Shown here: piece by piece, positions 32,242 through 39,725 of the stretch | How the letters are laid out: every line of letters starts with the position of its first letter | Position numbering within the stretch: the stretch's first letter is position 1 | Origin: a phage | Direction: 5' to 3' (one strand) | Length of the DNA: 64,000 bases | Sequence record: PV419677.1 | The notes under the pieces: generated by a model | The model's input: only the letters and a program-made list of their open reading frames with translations | The model's database searches: none | Told to the model about the DNA's origin: nothing | Position numbers and translations under genes: made by a program

Positions 32242-33801
32242 ATGAAAAAGAATGCATTAGTTCAAAAATGGTCCGCTCTGTTGGAAAACGAAGCTCTTCC
32301 GGAAATCGTTGGTGCTTCCAAACAAGCTATCATCGCTAAAATCTTTGAAAACCAGGAACAAGATATTCTGACCGCTCCTGAATACCGTGACGAAAAAATC
32401 TCCGAAGCATTTGGTTCTTTCCTGACCGAAGCTGAAATCGGTGGTGACCATGGTTATGATGCTACCAATATCGCTGCTGGCCAGACCTCTGGTGCAGTAA
32501 CTCAGATTGGGCCGGCAGTTATGGGCATGGTTCGTCGTGCTATCCCGCATCTGATTGCGTTTGATATTTGTGGCGTACAGCCTCTGAACAACCCGACTGG
32601 CCAGGTATTTGCCCTGCGTGCAGTTTACGGTAAAGACCCTGTAGCTGCTGGTGCTAAAGAAGCTTTCCACCCGATGTATGCTCCGAACGCTATGTTCTCT
32701 GGTCAGGGCGCTGCTCAGACTTTTGAAGCACTGGCTGCAGGTAAAGTTCTGGAAGTTGGTAAAATTTATTCTCACTTCTTCGAAGCAACTGGTTCCGCAC
32801 ACTTCCAGGCTGTTGAAGCTGTAACCGTTGATGCTGGCGCTACTGATGCTGCTAAACTGGATGCTGAAGTTACCAAACTGCTCGAAGCTGGTCAGCTGGC
32901 TGAACTGGCTGAAGGTATGGCTACCTCCATCGCCGAACTGCAAGAAGGTTTTAACGGTTCCTCTGATAACCCGTGGAACGAAATGGGCTTCCGTATTGAC
33001 AAACAAGTTATCGAAGCTAAATCTCGTCAGCTGAAAGCAAGCTACTCTATCGAACTGGCACAGGACCTGCGCGCTGTTCATGGTATGGATGCTGATGCCG
33101 AATTGAGTGGTATTCTGGCTACCGAAATTATGCTGGAAATCAACCGCGAAGTTATCGATTGGATTAACTACTCCGCACAGGTTGGTAAATCTGGTATGAC
33201 CAACACCGTTGGCGCTAAAGCTGGTGTGTTTGACTTCCAGGACCCGATTGATATCCGTGGTGCTCGTTGGGCTGGTGAAAGCTTCAAAGCTTTACTGTTC
33301 CAGATTGATAAAGAAGCCGCTGAAATCGCTCGTCAGACCGGTCGTGGTGCAGGTAACTTCATCATCGCTTCCCGTAACGTAGTTAACGTACTGGCTGCTG
33401 TTGATACTTCTGTTAGTTATGCTGCTCAGGGTCTGGGTAAAGGTTTCAACGTTGACACCACTAAAGCTGTGTTCGCTGGTGTTCTGGGTGGCAAATACCG
33501 TGTCTATATCGACCAGTATGCTCGTGCAGATTACTTCACCATCGGTTACAAAGGCGCTAACGAAATGGATGCTGGTATCTACTACGCACCATATGTTGCA
33601 CTGACCCCGCTGCGTGGCTCTGACCCGAAAAACTTCCAGCCGGTTATGGGCTTCAAAACCCGTTACGGTATCGGTATCAACCCGTTTGCTGACCCTGCTG
33701 CTCAGGCTCCGACCAAGCGCATTCAGAACGGCATGCCGGATATCGTTAACAGCCTTGGCTTGAACGGTTACTTCCGCCGCGTATATGTTAAAGGAATTTA
33801 A
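32242..33801 (+). CDS. 23: gp23 major capsid protein
   Basis: 519 aa (T4 521). Confidence 0.95.
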   Translation: MKKNALVQKWSALLENEALPEIVGASKQAIIAKIFENQEQDILTAPEYRDEKISEAFGSFLTEAEIGGDHGYDATNIAAGQTSGAVTQIGPAVMGMVRRAIPHLIAFDICGVQPLNNPTGQVFALRAVYGKDPVAAGAKEAFHPMYAPNAMFSGQGAAQTFEALAAGKVLEVGKIYSHFFEATGSAHFQAVEAVTVDAGATDAAKLDAEVTKLLEAGQLAELAEGMATSIAELQEGFNGSSDNPWNEMGFRIDKQVIEAKSRQLKASYSIELAQDLRAVHGMDADAELSGILATEIMLEINREVIDWINYSAQVGKSGMTNTVGAKAGVFDFQDPIDIRGARWAGESFKALLFQIDKEAAEIARQTGRGAGNFIIASRNVVNVLAAVDTSVSYAAQGLGKGFNVDTTKAVFAGVLGGKYRVYIDQYARADYFTIGYKGANEMDAGIYYAPYVALTPLRGSDPKNFQPVMGFKTRYGIGINPFADPAAQAPTKRIQNGMPDIVNSLGLNGYFRRVYVKGI

Positions 33802-33823
33802 TCCTAGATTAAGTTAAATAAAA

Positions 33824-33847
33824 AGGGACCCTTGGGGTCCCTTTCTT
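33824..33847. terminator. bidirectional hairpin terminator between gene 23 and the convergent small ORF
   Basis: AGGGACC-cttgg-GGTCCCT followed by T-rich run. Confidence 0.55.
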
Positions 33848-33851
33848 GTTT

Positions 33852-34133
33852 TCATACCATACCATTTAAATGAACTTCTACCCGCCGCTTGATGAGGTCT
33901 CTGAAGTTAACATTGTTTTCTTGAAGTTTCAACCAGTTACCATTTTTATCTTTAGTGTGAGTAGAATAATTACCATTCCACCAGAAATCAGTGTCATATG
34001 CTAAGTTTTCATATTTTTTAACTAGTTTGTTCAGAGCATTGCCATTAACACCATTTGGGTATTTGTTGACCAATGCAATAACTTCAATTTCCAATTTTTT
34101 AAAGGTATTCAGAAGGAAAGTTGCTTTGTTCAT
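33852..34133 (-). CDS. hypothetical early protein at the T4 segD position (not a GIY-YIG protein)
   Basis: About 93 aa from ATG 34133 (SD GGAG); own early promoter upstream; opposite strand to the flanking late genes 23 and 24. Confidence 0.5.
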   Translation of the reverse strand: MNKATFLLNTFKKLEIEVIALVNKYPNGVNGNALNKLVKKYENLAYDTDFWWNGNYSTHTKDKNGNWLKLQENNVNFRDLIKRRVEVHLNGMV

Positions 34134-34169
34134 TTTAGACTCCATTGTTTGGTAACTCAGTATGAAATC

Positions 34170-34199
34170 ATTATGTCTTATCTTAATCGGGTTGTAAAC
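34170..34199 (-). promoter_or_regulatory. sigma70-type early promoter (GTTTAC, 18 nt, CATAAT)
   Basis: -35 GTTTAC (34199-34194), -10 CATAAT (34175-34170); 24-nt core identical to the copy at 57682-57705. Confidence 0.5.
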
Positions 34200-34205
34200 A
34201 ACTTT

Positions 34206-34213
34206 TATAAATA
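34206..34213 (+). promoter_or_regulatory. late promoter TATAAATA for gene 24
   Basis: Exact TATAAATA 27 nt upstream of gp24 ATG. Confidence 0.6.
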
Positions 34214-34239
34214 AAGTATATCACAAAAGGAAAGCGCAA

Positions 34240-35520
34240 ATGGCAAAGATTAACAAATTACTGCGCGAGTCAACTATTACTACCAGCAACTCCTTGGGCC
34301 GCCCGAATCTTGTTGCTTTGACCCGCGCTACGACTAAATTGATTTACCGCGATATCATCGCTGAACAACGTACTAACCAGCCTGTTGCTGCACTGTATGG
34401 TGTTAAATATCTTACTCCTGATAACGAATTCAGTTTCCAGACGGGCGCTACTTATGGAGGTGAAGTCGGTTCTAAAGACCGTACAACTATTCCAGAGTTA
34501 GCTACAGCCACTCAACCTGTGGCTAAAGGCGAATATGTAAAATACCAAAATATCGTTTATAAAGCTCTGGTTGATAATCCATTTGCATCGACCACAGAAA
34601 CAGTGTTATCTGATGTTCTGCAAGAAGGTCTTATTGCATCGACTATTCGTTTAGTTCCTGATGCGGCACACACCGAGAAATTCGAAGCTGGTGATGTTGA
34701 AATTAGCAATGCTGTATTCCAGGTTAACAAATGGAATGCCCCGGTTAAAACACGTAAATTGAAAACTGCATTAACTGTTGAACTTGCTCAGGATATGGAA
34801 GCAAATGGTTTTAACGCTCCTGCATTCTTGGAAGACCTGCTTGCCACTATTATGGCAGATGAAATTAACAAAGATGTTCTTCAGTCTCTTATTACCGTTT
34901 CCAAGCGTTATAAAGTAACTGGCGTTTCTGACAATGGCACCATCGATTTAACATACGATGCAGCCCCAGAAGGTGCACGTAAACTGTACGAACTGGTTTG
35001 CGAAATGAACTCCGAAATTCAGAAAACTACATCTTATTCCGGTACCTTTGTTGTTGCCTCTAGCCGTGTTGCTGCTATGTTGGCCGGTTCTGGTTGGTTG
35101 AAACACAGGCCAGAAGACGAACAGTGGCTCCCCGAAACAGCGTACGGTTATTTGATTAATGGCCTCCCTGTATTCTGTGATGTTAACAGTCCATTGGATT
35201 ATGTAACTGTTGGTGTTAAAGAAAATTACGGCGGAAACGAAGTCGTAGGCTCAATTTTCTATGCTCCTTATACCGAAGGCCTGGACTTGGATGATGAAGA
35301 GCACGTTGGTGCGTTTAAGGTCATTGTGGACCCAGACAGCTTGCAGCCATCTATCTCTCTGATGGTTCGTTACGCACTTTCAGCTAACCCGTACACCGTT
35401 GCTAAAGACGATAAAGAAGCTCGTATTATCGATGCAACCAATATGGATTTAATGGCCGGTCAGAGCAATATGTCTTATCTGCTCGGTGTTAAACTTCCGC
35501 CAATCATTTATGAGGCGTAA
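34240..35520 (+). CDS. 24: gp24 capsid vertex protein (copy A, T4-like)
   Basis: 426 aa; MAKINKLLRESTITTSNSLGRPNLVALTRATTKLIY... matches recalled T4 gp24. Confidence 0.9.
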   Translation: MAKINKLLRESTITTSNSLGRPNLVALTRATTKLIYRDIIAEQRTNQPVAALYGVKYLTPDNEFSFQTGATYGGEVGSKDRTTIPELATATQPVAKGEYVKYQNIVYKALVDNPFASTTETVLSDVLQEGLIASTIRLVPDAAHTEKFEAGDVEISNAVFQVNKWNAPVKTRKLKTALTVELAQDMEANGFNAPAFLEDLLATIMADEINKDVLQSLITVSKRYKVTGVSDNGTIDLTYDAAPEGARKLYELVCEMNSEIQKTTSYSGTFVVASSRVAAMLAGSGWLKHRPEDEQWLPETAYGYLINGLPVFCDVNSPLDYVTVGVKENYGGNEVVGSIFYAPYTEGLDLDDEEHVGAFKVIVDPDSLQPSISLMVRYALSANPYTVAKDDKEARIIDATNMDLMAGQSNMSYLLGVKLPPIIYEA

Positions 35521-36804
35521 ATGCAAAAGATTAATGCACTAATTCACGAATCAACATTAACGGCGGCCAACCAGGTCGCCCGTCCTAATTTGCTTTCTTA
35601 TACTCAAGCCACGAATAAACGAATTTTTAAAGCGCTCGTGGCCGAACAGAAAACTACCCAGCCTGTTGCAGCGCTGTATGGTGTTCGTGTTCTGAACCCA
35701 GATGATAAAATGACTTATCTCGGTGGAGCAACATTTGCAGGTCAGATTGGTATGTTCGAGCGTAAGAATATTCCAGAATTTACAAACAAAGACGAAGCTT
35801 ATGCAGTCGGCGATATGTTCCAGTTTGAAAGTGTTGTGTTCAAAGTTTTGGAAGCATCCCCATTCGCCGGTACACTCGAAACTGATTTAGGTGAAGTTAT
35901 TTCTGAAGCCATTGCTGCTGGGCATATAAGAATGATGTCAGATGCTGCTTTCACTGATAAATTTGAAAAGGGGCATCCTGAAATTGCTGAAGCTGGTTTT
36001 CGTATCGATAAATGGCAGACTGAAGTTAAATCCAGAAAGTTGAAAACTTCTTTAACTGTCGAGCTTGCCCAGGACCTGGAAGCAAACGGTTTTGATGCAA
36101 CAGACTTCATCGATAATATTCTCGGCATTCAAATGGCAGAGGAAATTAATAAGGATGTATTGCAATCCCTTATTACTGTTAGTTCCCGCTTCAAGGTGCA
36201 AGGTGTTTCGGAAAAAGGTGTATTGAATCTTACTGACCCGAAATATGATAATGCCCAGGACCGCGCACGAACCCTGTATTATTATATGTGTGAAATGAAT
36301 TCTGCAGTTCAACGTCAGACTTCGTTTGCTGGTACATATGCAGTTGCTTCTTCCCGTTGTGCAGCTATTTTAGCCGCTTCTGGCTGGGTTGAGAAAAAGG
36401 AAGACCAGGATGAATTGGCCTATGGTGTTCTGAAGAACGGTTTGCCTCTTTACGCTGATATGAATAGTCCATGCGATTATGTTATTGTTGGTGTAAATGC
36501 GGATATGGGTGAAGGTCAGACGGTCGCATCTTTATATTATGCGCCTTATACGGAAGGACTTAGCGAAGTTGATGATGAGGGTGATACCTCGGTTGGGGAA
36601 TTCAAGGTTATTGTTGACCCTGAAAGCTTACAGCCTACGGTTGCACTGTTAGCTCGTTATGCTTTGACTGCGAACCCTTACACCGTTGCTAAAGATGATA
36701 AAGAAGCTCGCCTTATTGATGGAGCTGATATGGATAAGATGGCTAACCAAAGTCAATTGAGTTCTTATCTTGGCGTTAAACTTCCACCGCTGGAAAAAGA
36801 ATAA
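35521..36804 (+). CDS. gp24 paralog (copy B, diverged)
   Basis: 427 aa; collinear with copy A, conserved blocks TQPVAALYGV, KSRKLKT.LTVELAQD.EANGF, EINKDVLQSLITVS, YAPYTEGL, FKVIVDP.SLQP, ANPYTVAKDDKEAR; ATG directly abuts copy A stop. Confidence 0.85.
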   Translation: MQKINALIHESTLTAANQVARPNLLSYTQATNKRIFKALVAEQKTTQPVAALYGVRVLNPDDKMTYLGGATFAGQIGMFERKNIPEFTNKDEAYAVGDMFQFESVVFKVLEASPFAGTLETDLGEVISEAIAAGHIRMMSDAAFTDKFEKGHPEIAEAGFRIDKWQTEVKSRKLKTSLTVELAQDLEANGFDATDFIDNILGIQMAEEINKDVLQSLITVSSRFKVQGVSEKGVLNLTDPKYDNAQDRARTLYYYMCEMNSAVQRQTSFAGTYAVASSRCAAILAASGWVEKKEDQDELAYGVLKNGLPLYADMNSPCDYVIVGVNADMGEGQTVASLYYAPYTEGLSEVDDEGDTSVGEFKVIVDPESLQPTVALLARYALTANPYTVAKDDKEARLIDGADMDKMANQSQLSSYLGVKLPPLEKE

Positions 36805-36825
36805 GGGCCTTGCGGCCCTTTTTTT
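36805..36825 (+). terminator. rho-independent terminator after gene 24 copy B
   Basis: GGGCC-TTGC-GGCCC followed by T7. Confidence 0.6.
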
Positions 36826-37831
36826 ATTCACTAATTAATGCAATCCATACATGTCTTAATGTTTCTTTTACATTTGCGATAAGTTGCTTTTTAACTTCAA
36901 CAGGATTTTCTGTCTGGGTTAATTCAAGTCCTTCACGACCCGCTTCTTCCAGGATATCCTGGACAGTCAAACCCATTACCTTCCCAAAATCCTTCGGCGA
37001 TACTTCCCCAATCTTACTGATAACATTGTTAATACGGTTGACAGTCACATAATCAGTAAACTTCCATAAAACATCCAGGTCTTCCTGGGACAACACAACA
37101 GCAGCCTTAATAGGCTTATCAGACTTTTTCTTTTCGCTGAATTTAGAGTTCTTACATTTAATCGCTACACGCTCGCCGTTAGGTAACCATGCAGGAACAT
37201 CAGGTTTTAATACAAATCCTTCAGCAGTGAATACTTTACCTTCCACTTTTGCATCAAAATCAGTGGTATTTGCTGTAGTCAATCCTGCGTTATCCACTGT
37301 AAAATTGTAATCAGGGACCACAGAATCCAGGTCATTAGGGAGCTTAATCAAGTCTTCAAAGCTACCTGTGGCCAGGCGTGGAGCAACTTTAAACTTATGA
37401 ATAATACAAAAGGCTTCCATAAGTGTGTCAGTCAGGACGGATTCAGAGCCATCTTCCTTAGTAACGCGGATATCAAACACATAGAAATCTTTATCGCCGT
37501 AATCCACATTCTTCTGGATACCTGTACCAGCAAACTCACCATAAATCTGGTAAGCCTGGTAATTAATATCCTGTAAAAGTTTCTGCACAGATTTAATAGA
37601 ATCTGCGTAGTTCTTTAATACAATTTCATAACCATAGAAATCTTCTGCAGGTAGGATAGGTCCAGTGCGTTTCGCGCATGTCACATTGTCTTGTTCAATG
37701 ATTAATGAAAAGTTGGTACCATGAATCTTTTCACGAGCTACCCATTCACCGCTGGTGAAGCCTTGCAGGCGAATCTTTTCAATGAACTTGTTATTATAGT
37801 GATTTTCAAGGCTGTTGTATTTCTTAAACAT
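36824..37831 (-). CDS. rnlB: RNA ligase 2
   Basis: 335 aa; [12 protein letters not shown]...[13 protein letters not shown] (KxHGxN nucleotidyltransferase motif), close to recalled T4 Rnl2. Confidence 0.9.
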
Positions 37832-38425: not shown

Positions 38426-38567
38426 GTTGAGTTAGTGAAGTTATCTTAACATGGAATTTTTAACTTGTAAACATGATTTTTATGCCAGATGAACAATTGC
38501 ATGGTATGGTCACAAAGACTCACTAGAGAAGGGTCCAGGTAACATTTGCCCAGTACCATAAAAATAA

Positions 38568-38591: not shown

Positions 38592-39725
38592 TTAATAAAC
38601 GTAATCGTATATAATACCAGTTTCTAAAGCGGTGCGATGAATAACTCGACCATTACGAGATTCTTGTACATCAACCTCTGGATAGTCGGTAATCATTTTT
38701 TGAAGTGTGTATCGGTGCAAATAATACGGGCTATCCGGGTCATCAGTTTTCCAGTCTTGGCCGGCAAGAGTCATTTTCTGAATTTCATCCATAACCCACC
38801 AACCACACCAGATATAAGCTGAATTACGTACTGGCAATGGGTGAATATATGGTAATTCGCCATCTGGAACTGGTGCGACTTTAGCCGTGACTGTTACATT
38901 ACCAGTTTTGGTAACGGTTACAGGGTTATAATCTGTAGCAGATACAACAACAGAAACTTCAATTAACTGGGAACCTTCGGCGCTTGTATCGATTGCTAAA
39001 GTATCCGTGGTACCAGCGACTGGTGAACCATCTTTCTTCCAAGAATAGGCAAAAGTAGCACCAGCAGGCGCACCGGCTACAGTAGCTTTAAAAGAAGCCG
39101 GAGTTCCTTCAGGAACATTAATAGAGGTCGGTGCTAAAGTAACAGAAACACCCGACATAGTTTTCTTAACAAAAGTTACCGCAGCTCCTTTAGATGCGGT
39201 GCCATTATTATAATCGGGTGCAGAAACAGTAACTTCACAGTTCAATGTATAATTTGCTTCTGCTGATTCGGTGACGGTAATAGTTTTACCAGTTTGACCT
39301 GCGATTACGCTAGTGTTACGTTTCCAAACGTAAGCGATTGTTGCACCAGAAGGAGCGCCTGTCACGTTAGCAGTAACAACTTGAGATTGCCCCACTTCTT
39401 TAGTAACAGAGGCAGGGTCTAAAGTCAATGTAATAGCAGGCATTGTTTTATTCTGGATAGTTAAAGTTGTCTCAGCCTCAGCAGTTTCCGGTTCACCGTC
39501 TGCCGGAGTGGTAGTTGCAACAACTTTAATAGTCTTACTGCCTGCTGGGCCAACAGCGACATAATCCATTGCTGCAGTCACAGAAGATTGAGGAACGCCA
39601 TCAACGGTCCATACAAATGATTCAACACCTTCAGCTGCAGCACCAGAGCCGGTTGCAGTGAAATTGGTTGTTGCTCCAATAACGGCCGTAGCCGCCAAAG
39701 GAGCAATAGCTACGGTATAAGCCAT
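38592..39725 (-). CDS. hoc: Hoc, highly immunogenic outer capsid protein (Ig-like domains)
   Basis: 377 aa; C-terminal ...VTVTKTGNVTVTAKVAPVPDGELPYIHPLPVRNSAYIWCGWWVMDEIQKMT... nearly identical to recalled T4 Hoc. Confidence 0.9.
   Translation of the reverse strand: MAYTVAIAPLAATAVIGATTNFTATGSGAAAEGVESFVWTVDGVPQSSVTAAMDYVAVGPAGSKTIKVVATTTPADGEPETAEAETTLTIQNKTMPAITLTLDPASVTKEVGQSQVVTANVTGAPSGATIAYVWKRNTSVIAGQTGKTITVTESAEANYTLNCEVTVSAPDYNNGTASKGAAVTFVKKTMSGVSVTLAPTSINVPEGTPASFKATVAGAPAGATFAYSWKKDGSPVAGTTDTLAIDTSAEGSQLIEVSVVVSATDYNPVTVTKTGNVTVTAKVAPVPDGELPYIHPLPVRNSAYIWCGWWVMDEIQKMTLAGQDWKTDDPDSPYYLHRYTLQKMITDYPEVDVQESRNGRVIHRTALETGIIYDYVY

What the first reader, a model, noticed from the sequence alone, without database searches (positions are those of the whole stretch)
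34240..36804. Tandem, diverged duplicate of capsid vertex gene 24
Two back-to-back ORFs (426 and 427 aa; the stop of the first directly abuts the ATG of the second) are both collinear with T4 gp24 over their whole length. Copy A is close to the recalled T4 protein. Copy B keeps the conserved blocks but differs at roughly 40-45% of positions by eye, so it is an old, maintained paralog rather than a recent duplication. T4 has one gene 24. Two vertex-protein paralogs could mean two chemically distinct classes of pentameric vertex, a decoy or decoration subunit, or capsid-geometry adaptation.
Basis: partly seen in the sequence, partly recalled or inferred. Interest (0 to 1): 0.6.

Follow-up and report, generated by a model that had tools for sequence, protein, structure and literature searches.

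The report
Two tandem capsid vertex genes
This T4-like phage carries two back-to-back, both-functional versions of the capsid corner (vertex) protein gene; the pair is real, ancient and already annotated in dozens of sequenced relatives, but nobody appears to have worked out what the second copy does.

Summary
ORF A (34240-35520, 426 aa) and ORF B (35521-36804, 427 aa) are full-length gp24 homologues, 55% identical to each other. A is 69% and B 56% identical to T4 gp24.

It is not new. The window is a Gaprivervirus, about 98% identical to ECML-359, UPEC07 and vB_YenM_P8. GenBank has annotated the pair as 24a/24b (JS98, JS10, IME08), 24(1)/24(2) (VR7) or "capsid vertex protein I/II". About 92-94 of 1378 gp24-bearing phage records carry it.

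What I add:
- **Origin.** B is not a copy of A. A groups with T4 gp24; B belongs to a separate deep clade.
- **Linkage.** In every locus checked, B sits directly downstream of a canonical gp24.
- **Expression.** One late promoter, start/stop gaps of -4 to +1 nt, and one terminator.
- **Selection.** Both copies are under strong purifying selection (dN/dS 0.02-0.15). B evolves more slowly than A.
- **Processing.** Both keep the gp21 protease cleavage motif.
- **Cassette swap.** Close relatives (SP18, P479, MX01) with 99% identical gp23 replace the whole A+B block by one gp24 of a third type, with breakpoints at the gene borders.

The best reading is two co-expressed shell vertex subunits. How they share the vertices is unknown. 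Interest is modest.

The parts
34206..34213 (+). T4-type late promoter motif TATAAATA, 26 nt upstream of the ATG of copy A. It is the only such motif on the + strand between 33700 and 37000, and there is none inside A or B.
   Evidence: The same motif lies upstream of the first gene in all 21 tandem loci examined.
34240..35520 (+). gp24 copy A (426 aa), the canonical capsid vertex protein and orthologue of T4 gp24 (69% identity). It keeps the N-terminal L-R-E|S protease motif.
35506..35523 (+). A/B junction. A GAGG Shine-Dalgarno sequence lies inside the last codons of A, and the TAA stop directly abuts the ATG of B. This arrangement is consistent with translational coupling.
   Evidence: In all 21 tandem loci the gap is -4 to +1 nt (ATGA, TAATG, TAAATG or TAATATG) with a GAG/GAGG sequence upstream. 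FBB1-like loci have TAATG.
35521..36804 (+). gp24 copy B (427 aa), a member of a distinct 'downstream gp24' paralogue family (24b, 24(2), vertex protein II). It is 55% identical to A and 56% to T4 gp24, and keeps the I-H-E|S protease motif.
36803..36826 (.). G+C-rich hairpin followed by a T run (AAGGGCCTTGCGGCCCTT TTTTT). It is a bidirectional intrinsic terminator that ends the A-B late transcript and the convergent rnlB transcript.
33820..33846 (.). Bidirectional terminator hairpin after gene 23. It separates the gp23 transcript from the A-B unit.
32242..33801 (+). Gene 23 (major capsid protein), the lattice into which gp24 pentamers fit. It is 99.2% identical to gp23 of phage P479, which has only one gp24.

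Best explanation
A and B are two different, co-expressed structural vertex proteins of the same prolate T4-type capsid. They are transcribed late as one bicistronic message: a TATAAATA promoter at 34206, then A, then B, then the terminator at 36803. B is probably translated by coupling to A. Both enter the prohead with an N-terminal 10-residue propeptide that the gp21 protease removes, and both contribute to the 11 non-portal pentameric vertices. A is the canonical gp24. B is an ancient partner paralogue that has stayed physically linked to a canonical gp24 ever since it arose.

Shown here: gene structure, homology, conserved linkage, co-divergence, purifying selection, and retention of the cleavage motif and of most pan-gp24 invariant residues.

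Inferred: that B is in the virion, and that it forms or joins pentamers.

Not resolved: whether A and B make separate homopentamers on different vertex classes (for example the distal apex versus the ten shoulder vertices of a prolate head) or mix within pentamers.

Evolutionary corollary (inferred): the one-gene state of T4 and its near relatives is probably a secondary loss of B. The gp24 locus also behaves as a swappable cassette, either [A+B] or a single type-C gene.
For: - **Full-length gp24 homology of both copies.** E = 2.8e-193 for A and 4.3e-148 for B against 1yue. Both exceed the Pfam PF07068 threshold.
- **One transcription unit.** There is a single late-promoter motif upstream of A and none inside A or B. 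Terminator hairpins bracket the unit. A Shine-Dalgarno sequence sits in the last codons of A. The -4 to +1 nt junction and the promoter are conserved in 21 of 21 tandem loci and in FBB1-like loci.
- **Selection.** dN/dS is 0.03-0.15 for A and 0.02-0.10 for B. For pairs that are not saturated it is 0.038/0.028, 0.031/0.053 and 0.069/0.048 (A/B).
- **Co-divergence.** The A and B distance matrices correlate with Mantel r = 0.955 (0 of 5000 permutations reach this value). The slope of 0.68 means B evolves more slowly than A. The within-genome A-B distance is constant at 0.62-0.69.
- **Strict linkage.** All 16 IMG/VR loci with a B-type gene and the window and four GenBank loci have A directly upstream. 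All 60 best A-type GenBank records contain two gp24 places. All 6 loci holding the more distant B-family proteins (66-70% identical) are also the downstream member of a pair.
- **Conserved residues.** B keeps 72 of the 82 columns that are invariant in 15 single-copy gp24s from distant genera. Both copies keep the (L/I)-x-E|S motif at residues 8-11. According to a review of the T4 head, 10 residues are removed from T4 gp24 by gp21 (PMC9958956).
- **Altered neighbour contacts.** Changes fixed in the B clade at otherwise invariant positions cluster in the N-arm (T4 positions L27Y, T32N, L34R, K56R, Y57V). The same review says this arm moves to the outer surface on capsid expansion and contacts neighbouring subunits. 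This suggests B has a different set of neighbour contacts.
Against: - I found no direct evidence that B is in virions. Nothing turned up in the searchable literature on proteomics, cryo-EM or genetics of these genera.
- Close relatives (SP18, P479, DK-13 and RZ in Gaprivervirus; MX01, AnYang and KIT01, which carry a 92% identical copy, MX01 being a confirmed Dhakavirus) have gp23 up to 99.2% identical but only one gp24, of a third type, and no second copy elsewhere in the genome. Two vertex proteins are therefore not required by this capsid lattice.
- A five-fold vertex has no obvious need for two subunit species.
- The AlphaFold model of B was unusable (mean pLDDT 45), so I could not compare interfaces.
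Confidence: 0.55

Rival explanations
1. Conditional or redundant vertex proteins. A and B are alternative, interchangeable vertex subunits. Each can fill all vertices on its own. Keeping both broadens the conditions under which heads assemble or stay stable (temperature, pH, host chaperone background).
For: Relatives with the same gp23 manage with one gp24, so a single species can do the job. Several pair-bearing phages are described as low-temperature or psychrophilic: the VR phages (from my own memory of Kaliniene et al.) and vB_YenM_P8, which lyses its host down to 6 deg C (PMC11269248). T4 that lacks gp24 because of a bypass mutation is reported to be less stable at low pH (PMC10580926).
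Against: Pure redundancy does not explain dN/dS of 0.02-0.1 in both copies across lineages whose synonymous sites are saturated. Nor does it explain why no A-only or B-only genome was seen among about 94 GenBank records, 16 IMG/VR loci and 6 metagenomic loci. The single-gp24 relatives belong to the same two genera, so low-temperature growth is not obviously tied to the pair. I did not test this.
Confidence: 0.2
2. Counter-defence role. B is a decoy or insensitive variant that blunts host immune sensors that recognise the vertex protein. It would not be a necessary building block.
For: The capsid vertex protein is needed to trigger type IV Thoeris, and a T6 A380V mutant escapes it (PMC13243611). 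The most divergent stretch between A and B (T4 residues 71-128, 31-39% identity) is also the most variable within each clade, as expected for a surface under diversifying pressure. The locus is exchanged as a cassette between close relatives, which is a pattern typical of arms-race loci.
Against: A is still present and would still be sensed. The residue equivalent to T6 A380 is alanine in A, B and the type-C gene alike. B is the more conserved of the two copies (slope 0.68), which is the opposite of what an arms-race gene would show. B keeps the protease site and 88% of the pan-gp24 invariant residues, which points to real assembly constraints.
Confidence: 0.1
3. B has left the vertex for another shell or assembly role. 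It might occupy a special position next to the pentons, act as an assembly or nucleation factor for A, or serve as a docking site for a decoration protein.
For: B carries clade-fixed substitutions at universally conserved N-arm positions. A and B are never found apart. In FBB1-like phages two further + strand genes, one with a faint collagen-repeat match, follow directly after B. VR7 has a collagen-repeat gene and an extra Hoc-like gene nearby.
Against: The window itself lacks those extra genes. B has the same length and the same collinear domain order as gp24, with only short gaps. Nothing in the sequence marks a new domain or a lost one.
Confidence: 0.1
4. B is a decaying or non-functional duplicate, or the pair is an assembly or annotation artefact.
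For: None, apart from T4 managing with a single gene.
Against: B is an intact ORF in every genome examined. Its dN/dS is 0.02-0.10. It is conserved in tandem across lineages with saturated dS. The arrangement recurs in independent isolates and metagenomes from many laboratories.
Confidence: 0.02

Closest known systems
Gene pairs 24a/24b of phages JS98, JS10 and IME08 (Dhakavirus), 24(1)/24(2) of vB_EcoM-VR7, and 'capsid vertex protein I/II' of VR5, VR20, VR25, VR26 and CJ20
   Same: This is the same locus, the same order and the same two orthologous genes. VR7 A and B are 97% and 98% identical to the window's copies, and JS10 A and B are 89% and 91% identical. The window belongs to this group (98.7% nucleotide identity to ECML-359).
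   Different: Nothing differs structurally. Those records only name the genes. I found no paper in the searchable library that discusses or tests the second copy.
T4 gp24, the pentameric capsid vertex protein (PDB 1yue, 5vf3, 7vrt)
   Same: It has the same family and length, and the same position between gene 23 and rnlB. It also has a late promoter and a 10-residue propeptide ending in Glu. A is its orthologue (97% bootstrap, 24 of 24 quartets).
   Different: T4 has one gene and this phage has two. B is 56% identical to T4 gp24 and lies outside the clade that holds T4 gp24 and A.
The gp23-to-gp24 duplication itself (major capsid protein specialised into a vertex protein)
   Same: It follows the same principle. 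A shell-protein gene duplicated in tandem, and the copy specialised for a different lattice position (reviews PMC9958956 and PMC3012670).
   Different: That event separated hexamer and pentamer roles, and its products are only about 20-28% identical. Here both products look like pentamer-type proteins and are 55% identical. No distinct lattice position for the second one is known.
Single 'type C' gp24 of Shigella phage SP18, P479, DK-13, RZ and, at 92% identity, MX01, AnYang and KIT01
   Same: It occupies the same genomic slot in the same two genera. Flanks are 97-100% identical right up to the start codon of A and again directly after the stop codon of B.
   Different: It is one gene of 1281 bp in place of two genes totalling 2565 bp. 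Type C is 69% identical to A, 69% to T4 gp24 and 54% to B.
Paired pentamer (vertex) paralogues of bacterial microcompartments, such as CsoS4A/CsoS4B of alpha-carboxysomes (recalled from memory, not tested here)
   Same: They are two tandemly encoded paralogous proteins that both form the five-fold vertices of one icosahedral shell, and their division of labour is unclear.
   Different: The fold and the lineage are unrelated. This is an analogy only.

Membership tests
T4 gp24 capsid vertex protein (Pfam PF07068, HK97-like fold) | Full-length sequence homology to T4 gp24, and closer to gp24 than to gp23 | tested here: met
   A: E = 2.8e-193, residues 1-424 against 1yue. B: E = 4.3e-148, residues 1-424. 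gp23 chains score only about 1e-11 over residues ~155-393. The window's own gp23 is 28% identical over 250 residues.
T4 gp24 capsid vertex protein (Pfam PF07068, HK97-like fold) | Pfam Gp23 family score above the curated threshold | tested here: met
   A scores 329 bits and B 327 bits against a cut-off of 24.4.
T4 gp24 capsid vertex protein (Pfam PF07068, HK97-like fold) | Short (10-residue) N-terminal propeptide ending in the (L/I)-x-E motif cut by the gp21 prohead protease | tested here: met
   A begins MAKINKLLRE|ST and B begins MQKINALIHE|ST. The motif is kept in all A-clade and B-clade sequences. The cleavage rule comes from PMC9958956. Actual cleavage cannot be tested with these tools.
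T4 gp24 capsid vertex protein (Pfam PF07068, HK97-like fold) | Late gene located between gene 23 and rnlB in the head-gene cluster | tested here: met
   The order is gp21, gp22, gp23, a 97-aa ORF, A, B, then rnlB on the opposite strand. The late-promoter motif is at 34206.
T4 gp24 capsid vertex protein (Pfam PF07068, HK97-like fold) | Three-dimensional fold equal to gp24 | tested here: inconclusive
   The AlphaFold2 model of B built from a 29-sequence alignment had mean pLDDT 45 and pTM 0.31, so I did not use it. The fold is inferred only from 56-69% identity to solved chains.
T4 gp24 capsid vertex protein (Pfam PF07068, HK97-like fold) | Forms pentamers at the 11 non-portal vertices and is present in virions | not testable with these tools
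   I found no proteomic or structural data for pair-bearing phages.
Downstream gp24 paralogue family ('24b', '24(2)', 'vertex protein II'), as delimited here | Falls in the monophyletic B clade, separate from canonical gp24 | tested here: met
   B plus the FBB1-like downstream copies are monophyletic in 100% of 300 NJ bootstraps. A and B as sisters: 0%. Quartets favour (B,dn|A,up) by 31-38 sites against 1-9.
Downstream gp24 paralogue family ('24b', '24(2)', 'vertex protein II'), as delimited here | Encoded immediately downstream of a canonical gp24, with an overlapping or abutting stop and start | tested here: met
   The gap is 0 nt in the window. It is -4 to +1 nt in 21 of 21 loci, and the same holds in L045-L050.
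Pseudogene or frameshifted remnant | Disrupted reading frame or relaxed selection (dN/dS near 1) | tested here: not met
   The ORF is intact at 427 aa and its dN/dS is 0.02-0.10.
Recent in-situ tandem duplication of the resident gene 24 | The two copies are each other's closest relatives, with low synonymous divergence or tracts of gene conversion | tested here: not met
   A groups with T4 gp24 to the exclusion of B (97% bootstrap, 24 of 24 quartets). pS is 0.60-0.75. Third-codon-position identity is 42% and the longest identical run is 17 nt.

The most novel reading that the evidence does not exclude
The ancestral capsid of a large part of the Tevenvirinae used two distinct vertex proteins, and T4's single gene 24 is a secondary simplification. 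In phages that keep the pair, A and B occupy chemically different vertex classes of the prolate head, for example the single distal apex versus the ten shoulder vertices, or they form obligate mixed vertices. If so, the textbook picture of eleven identical gp24 pentamers does not hold for these phages.
Probability: 0.25. Interest if true: 0.65.

Novelty: already known. Interest (0 to 1): 0.33.

Why it matters
The T4 head is the reference model for how large prolate capsids assemble, and gp24 is its textbook specialised penton. About 7% of sequenced gp24-bearing phages carry a second, strongly conserved vertex-protein gene that nobody seems to have characterised. These include many phages being developed for therapy or food safety in the genera Dhakavirus, Gaprivervirus, Gelderlandvirus and Marfavirus.

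If both proteins are in the shell, these phages offer a natural system for asking how a capsid tells vertex positions apart. Nature has already provided a control: sister phages with the same major capsid protein and only one vertex gene.

The practical value is small. The result matters for annotation (the second copy should not be called a major capsid protein or left unannotated) and for engineering capsid display on these phages.

Tried and rejected
- **Literature.** Eight full-text searches and about 15 papers produced no discussion, proteomics, cryo-EM or genetics of the second gp24. The JS98 paper (Zuber 2007), the Fokine 2005 gp24 structure paper and the paper I looked up as PMC5625921 (from memory, the Chen 2017 T4 head structure) are not held. 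Two searches were swamped by irrelevant hits.
- **Structure.** The AlphaFold2 model of B from a 29-sequence alignment had mean pLDDT 45. I discarded it and ran no fold search. I therefore could not map A/B differences onto intra-pentamer versus gp23-facing interfaces, and domain statements rest on sequence position only.
- **Recent duplication or accelerated copy.** Rejected. Tajima relative-rate tests with distant outgroups show no excess of B-specific change (for example 49:40, 48:40 and 38:45). With T4 as the reference the counts are 34:90, which reflects topology and not rate.
- **Gene conversion between A and B.** None detected.
- **Relics of a lost second copy in single-copy genomes.** tblastn at E <= 10 against 24 single-copy loci found only gp23. 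The loss scenario therefore has no fossil support.
- **Thoeris escape site.** The residue equivalent to T6 A380 is the same in A, B and type C, so it gives no support to a sensor-escape role.
- **gp23 tree as a species tree.** It is too conserved to resolve genus relationships, with deep-node bootstraps of 16-46%. I did not use it to count losses.
- **Foreign composition.** GC and GC3 of B (0.426 and 0.336) match those of A (0.434 and 0.368), so there is no compositional sign of recent import.
Full report
**1. The observation**

Two ORFs on the + strand, 34240-35520 (426 aa, "A") and 35521-36804 (427 aa, "B"), are separated by nothing: the TAA stop of A is followed at once by the ATG of B.
- BLASTP of A against B gives 55% identity and 75% positives over the whole length, E = 1e-172.
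- Both match the T4 gp24 sequence of PDB 1yue from end to end. A has E = 2.8e-193 and B has E = 4.3e-148.
- Matches to gp23 chains are about 1e-11 and only partial. The window's own gp23 (32242-33801) is 28% identical to A over 250 residues.
- Both score about 328 bits on Pfam PF07068, whose threshold is 24.4.

So the finding is real and far beyond chance. A is 69% identical to T4 gp24 and B is 56%. T4 has one gene 24.

**2. What genome this is, and whether the pair is known**

The 3-kb region is 98.7% identical to Escherichia phage ECML-359. It is 98.3-98.6% identical to Yersinia phage vB_YenM_P8, TH40 and UPEC07, and 91.6% identical to vB_EcoM-VR7, the type species of Gaprivervirus.

GenBank already annotates the two genes under several names:
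- 24(1) and 24(2) in VR7
- 24a and 24b in JS10; JS98 and IME08 list 24a for the first copy
- "capsid vertex protein I / II" in VR5, VR20, VR25, VR26 and CJ20
- two "head vertex protein" genes in Salmonella phage STP4-a

Of 1378 phage records with a gp24, 94 carry a B-type gene at 80% identity or more, and 92 carry an A-type gene at 80% or more. All 60 best A-type records contain two gp24 places.

As an observation this is therefore already known. I found no paper in the searchable library that discusses the second copy or tests it. The original JS98 paper is not held.

**3. Anatomy and expression signals**

- The T4 late-promoter motif TATAAATA occurs once on the + strand in 33700-37000, at 34206, which is 26 nt before the ATG of A. 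There is none inside A or B.
- G+C-rich hairpins followed by T runs lie after gene 23 (33820-33846) and directly after B (36803-36826).
- A GAGG sequence sits 8 nt before the ATG of B, inside the last codons of A.

The same layout holds in all 21 tandem loci I extracted. These come from Gaprivervirus, Dhakavirus, Gelderlandvirus, Marfavirus and an unnamed ~175-kb IMG/VR lineage. In each there is a late promoter before the first gene only, and the stop/start gap is -4 to +1 nt (ATGA, TAATG, TAAATG or TAATATG).

This is the signature of a bicistronic, probably translationally coupled, late operon. That reading is inferred from sequence, and I have no expression data.

**4. Both copies are maintained**

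Nei-Gojobori dN/dS between orthologues is 0.03-0.15 for A and 0.02-0.10 for B. For pairs whose dS is not saturated, the A/B values are:
- window vs VR7: 0.038 / 0.028
- two Gelderlandviruses: 0.031 / 0.053
- two Marfaviruses: 0.069 / 0.048

Between A and B, synonymous sites are saturated (pS 0.60-0.75). Third-codon-position identity is 42%, and the longest identical nucleotide run is 17 nt, so there is no gene conversion. GC content is the same in both.

Of 82 alignment columns that are invariant in 15 single-copy gp24s from distant genera, A keeps 80 and B keeps 72. Both keep the (L/I)-x-E|S motif at residues 8-11. In T4 this is where gp21 removes the 10-residue propeptide (PMC9958956).

The changes fixed in B at otherwise invariant positions cluster in the N-terminal arm (T4 positions L27Y, T32N, L34R, K56R, Y57V), with T204I/V and F341Y elsewhere. 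According to the same review, the N-arm moves to the outer surface on expansion and binds neighbouring subunits.

The most divergent stretch between A and B (T4 residues 71-128, 31-39% identity) is also variable within each clade.

**5. Origin: B is not a copy of A**

In neighbour-joining trees, A groups with the single gp24 of T4, Mosigvirus, Karamvirus and Moonvirus to the exclusion of B (97% bootstrap). All 24 four-taxon tests favour (A,T4 | B,outgroup) by 13-27 informative sites against 2-13.

Tajima relative-rate tests with distant outgroups (Krischvirus, Pseudotevenvirus, an Aeromonas phage) show no excess change in B: the counts are 49:40, 48:40 and 38:45. B is therefore a deep lineage and not an accelerated duplicate.

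A search of 5.8 billion proteins found more distant B-family members at 66-69% identity, among them one of two gp24s of Erwinia phage FBB1. In all 6 loci recovered for them, the B-like gene is again the downstream member of a gp23 - gp24 - gp24 array with a 1-nt overlap. The next class down (63% identity, Jiaodavirus-like) is single-copy.

With these sequences added, the bootstrap and quartet support is as follows:
- B plus the FBB1-like downstream copies are monophyletic in 100% of bootstraps.
- A, type C, the T4 group and the FBB1-like upstream copies are monophyletic in 99%.
- A, type C and the T4 group, excluding the FBB1-like upstream copies, form a clade in 97%.
- A and B as sisters are recovered in 0%.
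- Quartets give (B,dn | A,up) 31-38 sites against 1-9.
- The nesting of T4 within the upstream clade is favoured in 35 of 36 quartets, but by modest margins.

Across 12 pair-bearing lineages the distance matrices of the two copies correlate with r = 0.955 (0 of 5000 permutations reach it). The slope is 0.68, so B evolves more slowly than A.

The simplest reading is one ancient origin of the pair, either by duplication or by capture of a gp24 from another T4-like lineage. The two genes then stayed linked and diverged together, and B was lost on the branches leading to the T4 group and to type C. This is an inference from distance trees. A likelihood analysis is still needed, and I found no relic of a lost copy in 24 single-copy loci.

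**6. A dimorphic cassette**

Phage P479 drew attention because its only gp24 is 53% identical to B. It has one gp24 of a third type ("C"): 69% identical to A, 69% to T4 gp24 and 54% to B. Yet its gp23 is 99.2% and its rnlB 96.7% identical to the window's.

The same type-C gene is found in other phages:
- At 99.8% identity in Shigella phage SP18 (Gaprivervirus sp18), DK-13 and RZ.
- At about 92% identity in MX01 (Dhakavirus mx01), AnYang, KIT01 and others.
- In total 19 records, each with only one gp24 place in the genome.

Nucleotide identity between the window and SP18 or P479 is 97-100% through gp22, gp23 and the 97-aa ORF. It drops to 60-77% from about 34239, the ATG of A, and returns to 89-98% directly after 36804, the stop of B.

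So within both genera the slot holds either [A+B] (2565 bp) or [C] (1281 bp), exchanged precisely at the gene borders. This has two consequences. The two-gene state is not demanded by this gp23 lattice, which argues against a capsid-geometry reading. And A and B travel, and are replaced, as a unit: I saw no A-only, B-only or C+B genome.

**7. Mechanism**

I consider it most likely (about 0.55) that both proteins are processed shell subunits that share the 11 non-portal vertices.

Steps shown here: homology, intact ORFs, selection, linkage, co-divergence, expression signals and the cleavage motif.

Steps inferred: incorporation into the virion and pentamer formation.

The way the vertices are partitioned is open. 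A and B could form separate homopentamers on non-equivalent vertices of a prolate head, or they could mix within pentamers. The N-arm substitutions fixed in B hint at different neighbour contacts.

The rivals are:
- Conditional or redundant use (0.2).
- A counter-defence decoy (0.1). This was prompted by the finding that the T6 vertex protein is required to trigger type IV Thoeris (PMC13243611). It is weakened because the escape residue is unchanged and B is the slower-evolving copy.
- A non-vertex shell, assembly or docking role (0.1).
- A dead gene or artefact (about 0.02, refuted).

**8. Verdict**

The finding is real, but it is ordinary as a discovery. The gene pair is present and named in dozens of public genomes, and the window is a near-identical member of that group.

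"Duplicate of gene 24 in this phage" and "T4 is the norm" are too simple.

What remains interesting is the unanswered biological question, together with three points this analysis adds: the deep separate ancestry of B, its unbroken linkage to a canonical gp24, and the [A+B]/[C] cassette dimorphism, which supplies a ready-made experimental control.

Noticed in passing
window 34239-36804 compared with L042 (SP18), L012 (P479) and L043 (MX01): The gp24 slot is dimorphic within Gaprivervirus and Dhakavirus. It holds either the A+B pair or one third-type gp24 (69% identical to A). The exchange breakpoints lie exactly at the start of A and the stop of B, inside flanks that are 97-100% identical.
   Followed up: yes
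window 33852-34145 (- strand): A 97-aa ORF lies between gene 23 and gp24-A, in the position where T4 has the homing endonuclease gene segD. It is conserved in VR7 (ORF190c), JS98 and SP18, and it has no Pfam match.
   Followed up: partly
window 38447-38547: A short patch between 24.3 and hoc is only 45-57% identical to SP18 and P479, although the flanks are 93% identical or better. This is a second small variable spot near the head genes.
   Followed up: no
window 38592-39725 (- strand); L001 8554-10783: The window has one Hoc-like gene (377 aa). VR7 has two additional + strand genes in this region, a collagen-repeat protein and a second Hoc-like protein, and the window lacks both.
   Followed up: no
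L045 2676-4506; L046 4890-6427; L047 5345-6900; L049 2634-4140; L050 4826-6341: In five of the six Erwinia phage FBB1-like tandem loci, two extra same-strand genes follow directly after the B-like gene. One encodes 332-352 aa with a faint collagen-repeat match in one of the loci, and the other encodes 165-279 aa. They could be vertex-associated decoration proteins.
   Followed up: no
L005 2498-3766 (Klebsiella phage R3_1); L012 (P479); ECML-359 record: Three public annotations have gaps. The B gene of R3_1 is annotated with a start 66 nt too late; the true ATG overlaps the stop of A as ATGA. The P479 record leaves gp24 and rnlB unannotated. The ECML-359 record leaves both gp24 genes unannotated.
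   Followed up: partly
window, whole: The late-promoter motif TATAAATA occurs 16 times on the + strand and 4 times on the - strand, which fits a late structural-gene region. ARAGORN finds no tRNA genes in the 64 kb.
   Followed up: no
relative UPEC07 (98.3% identical to window 34000-37000): UPEC07 is the source of the crystallised TadIV-1 sponge that blocks type IV Thoeris (PDB 9WIW). That defence system needs the capsid vertex protein as its trigger in T6. I did not check whether the window phage carries the TadIV-1 gene.
   Followed up: no
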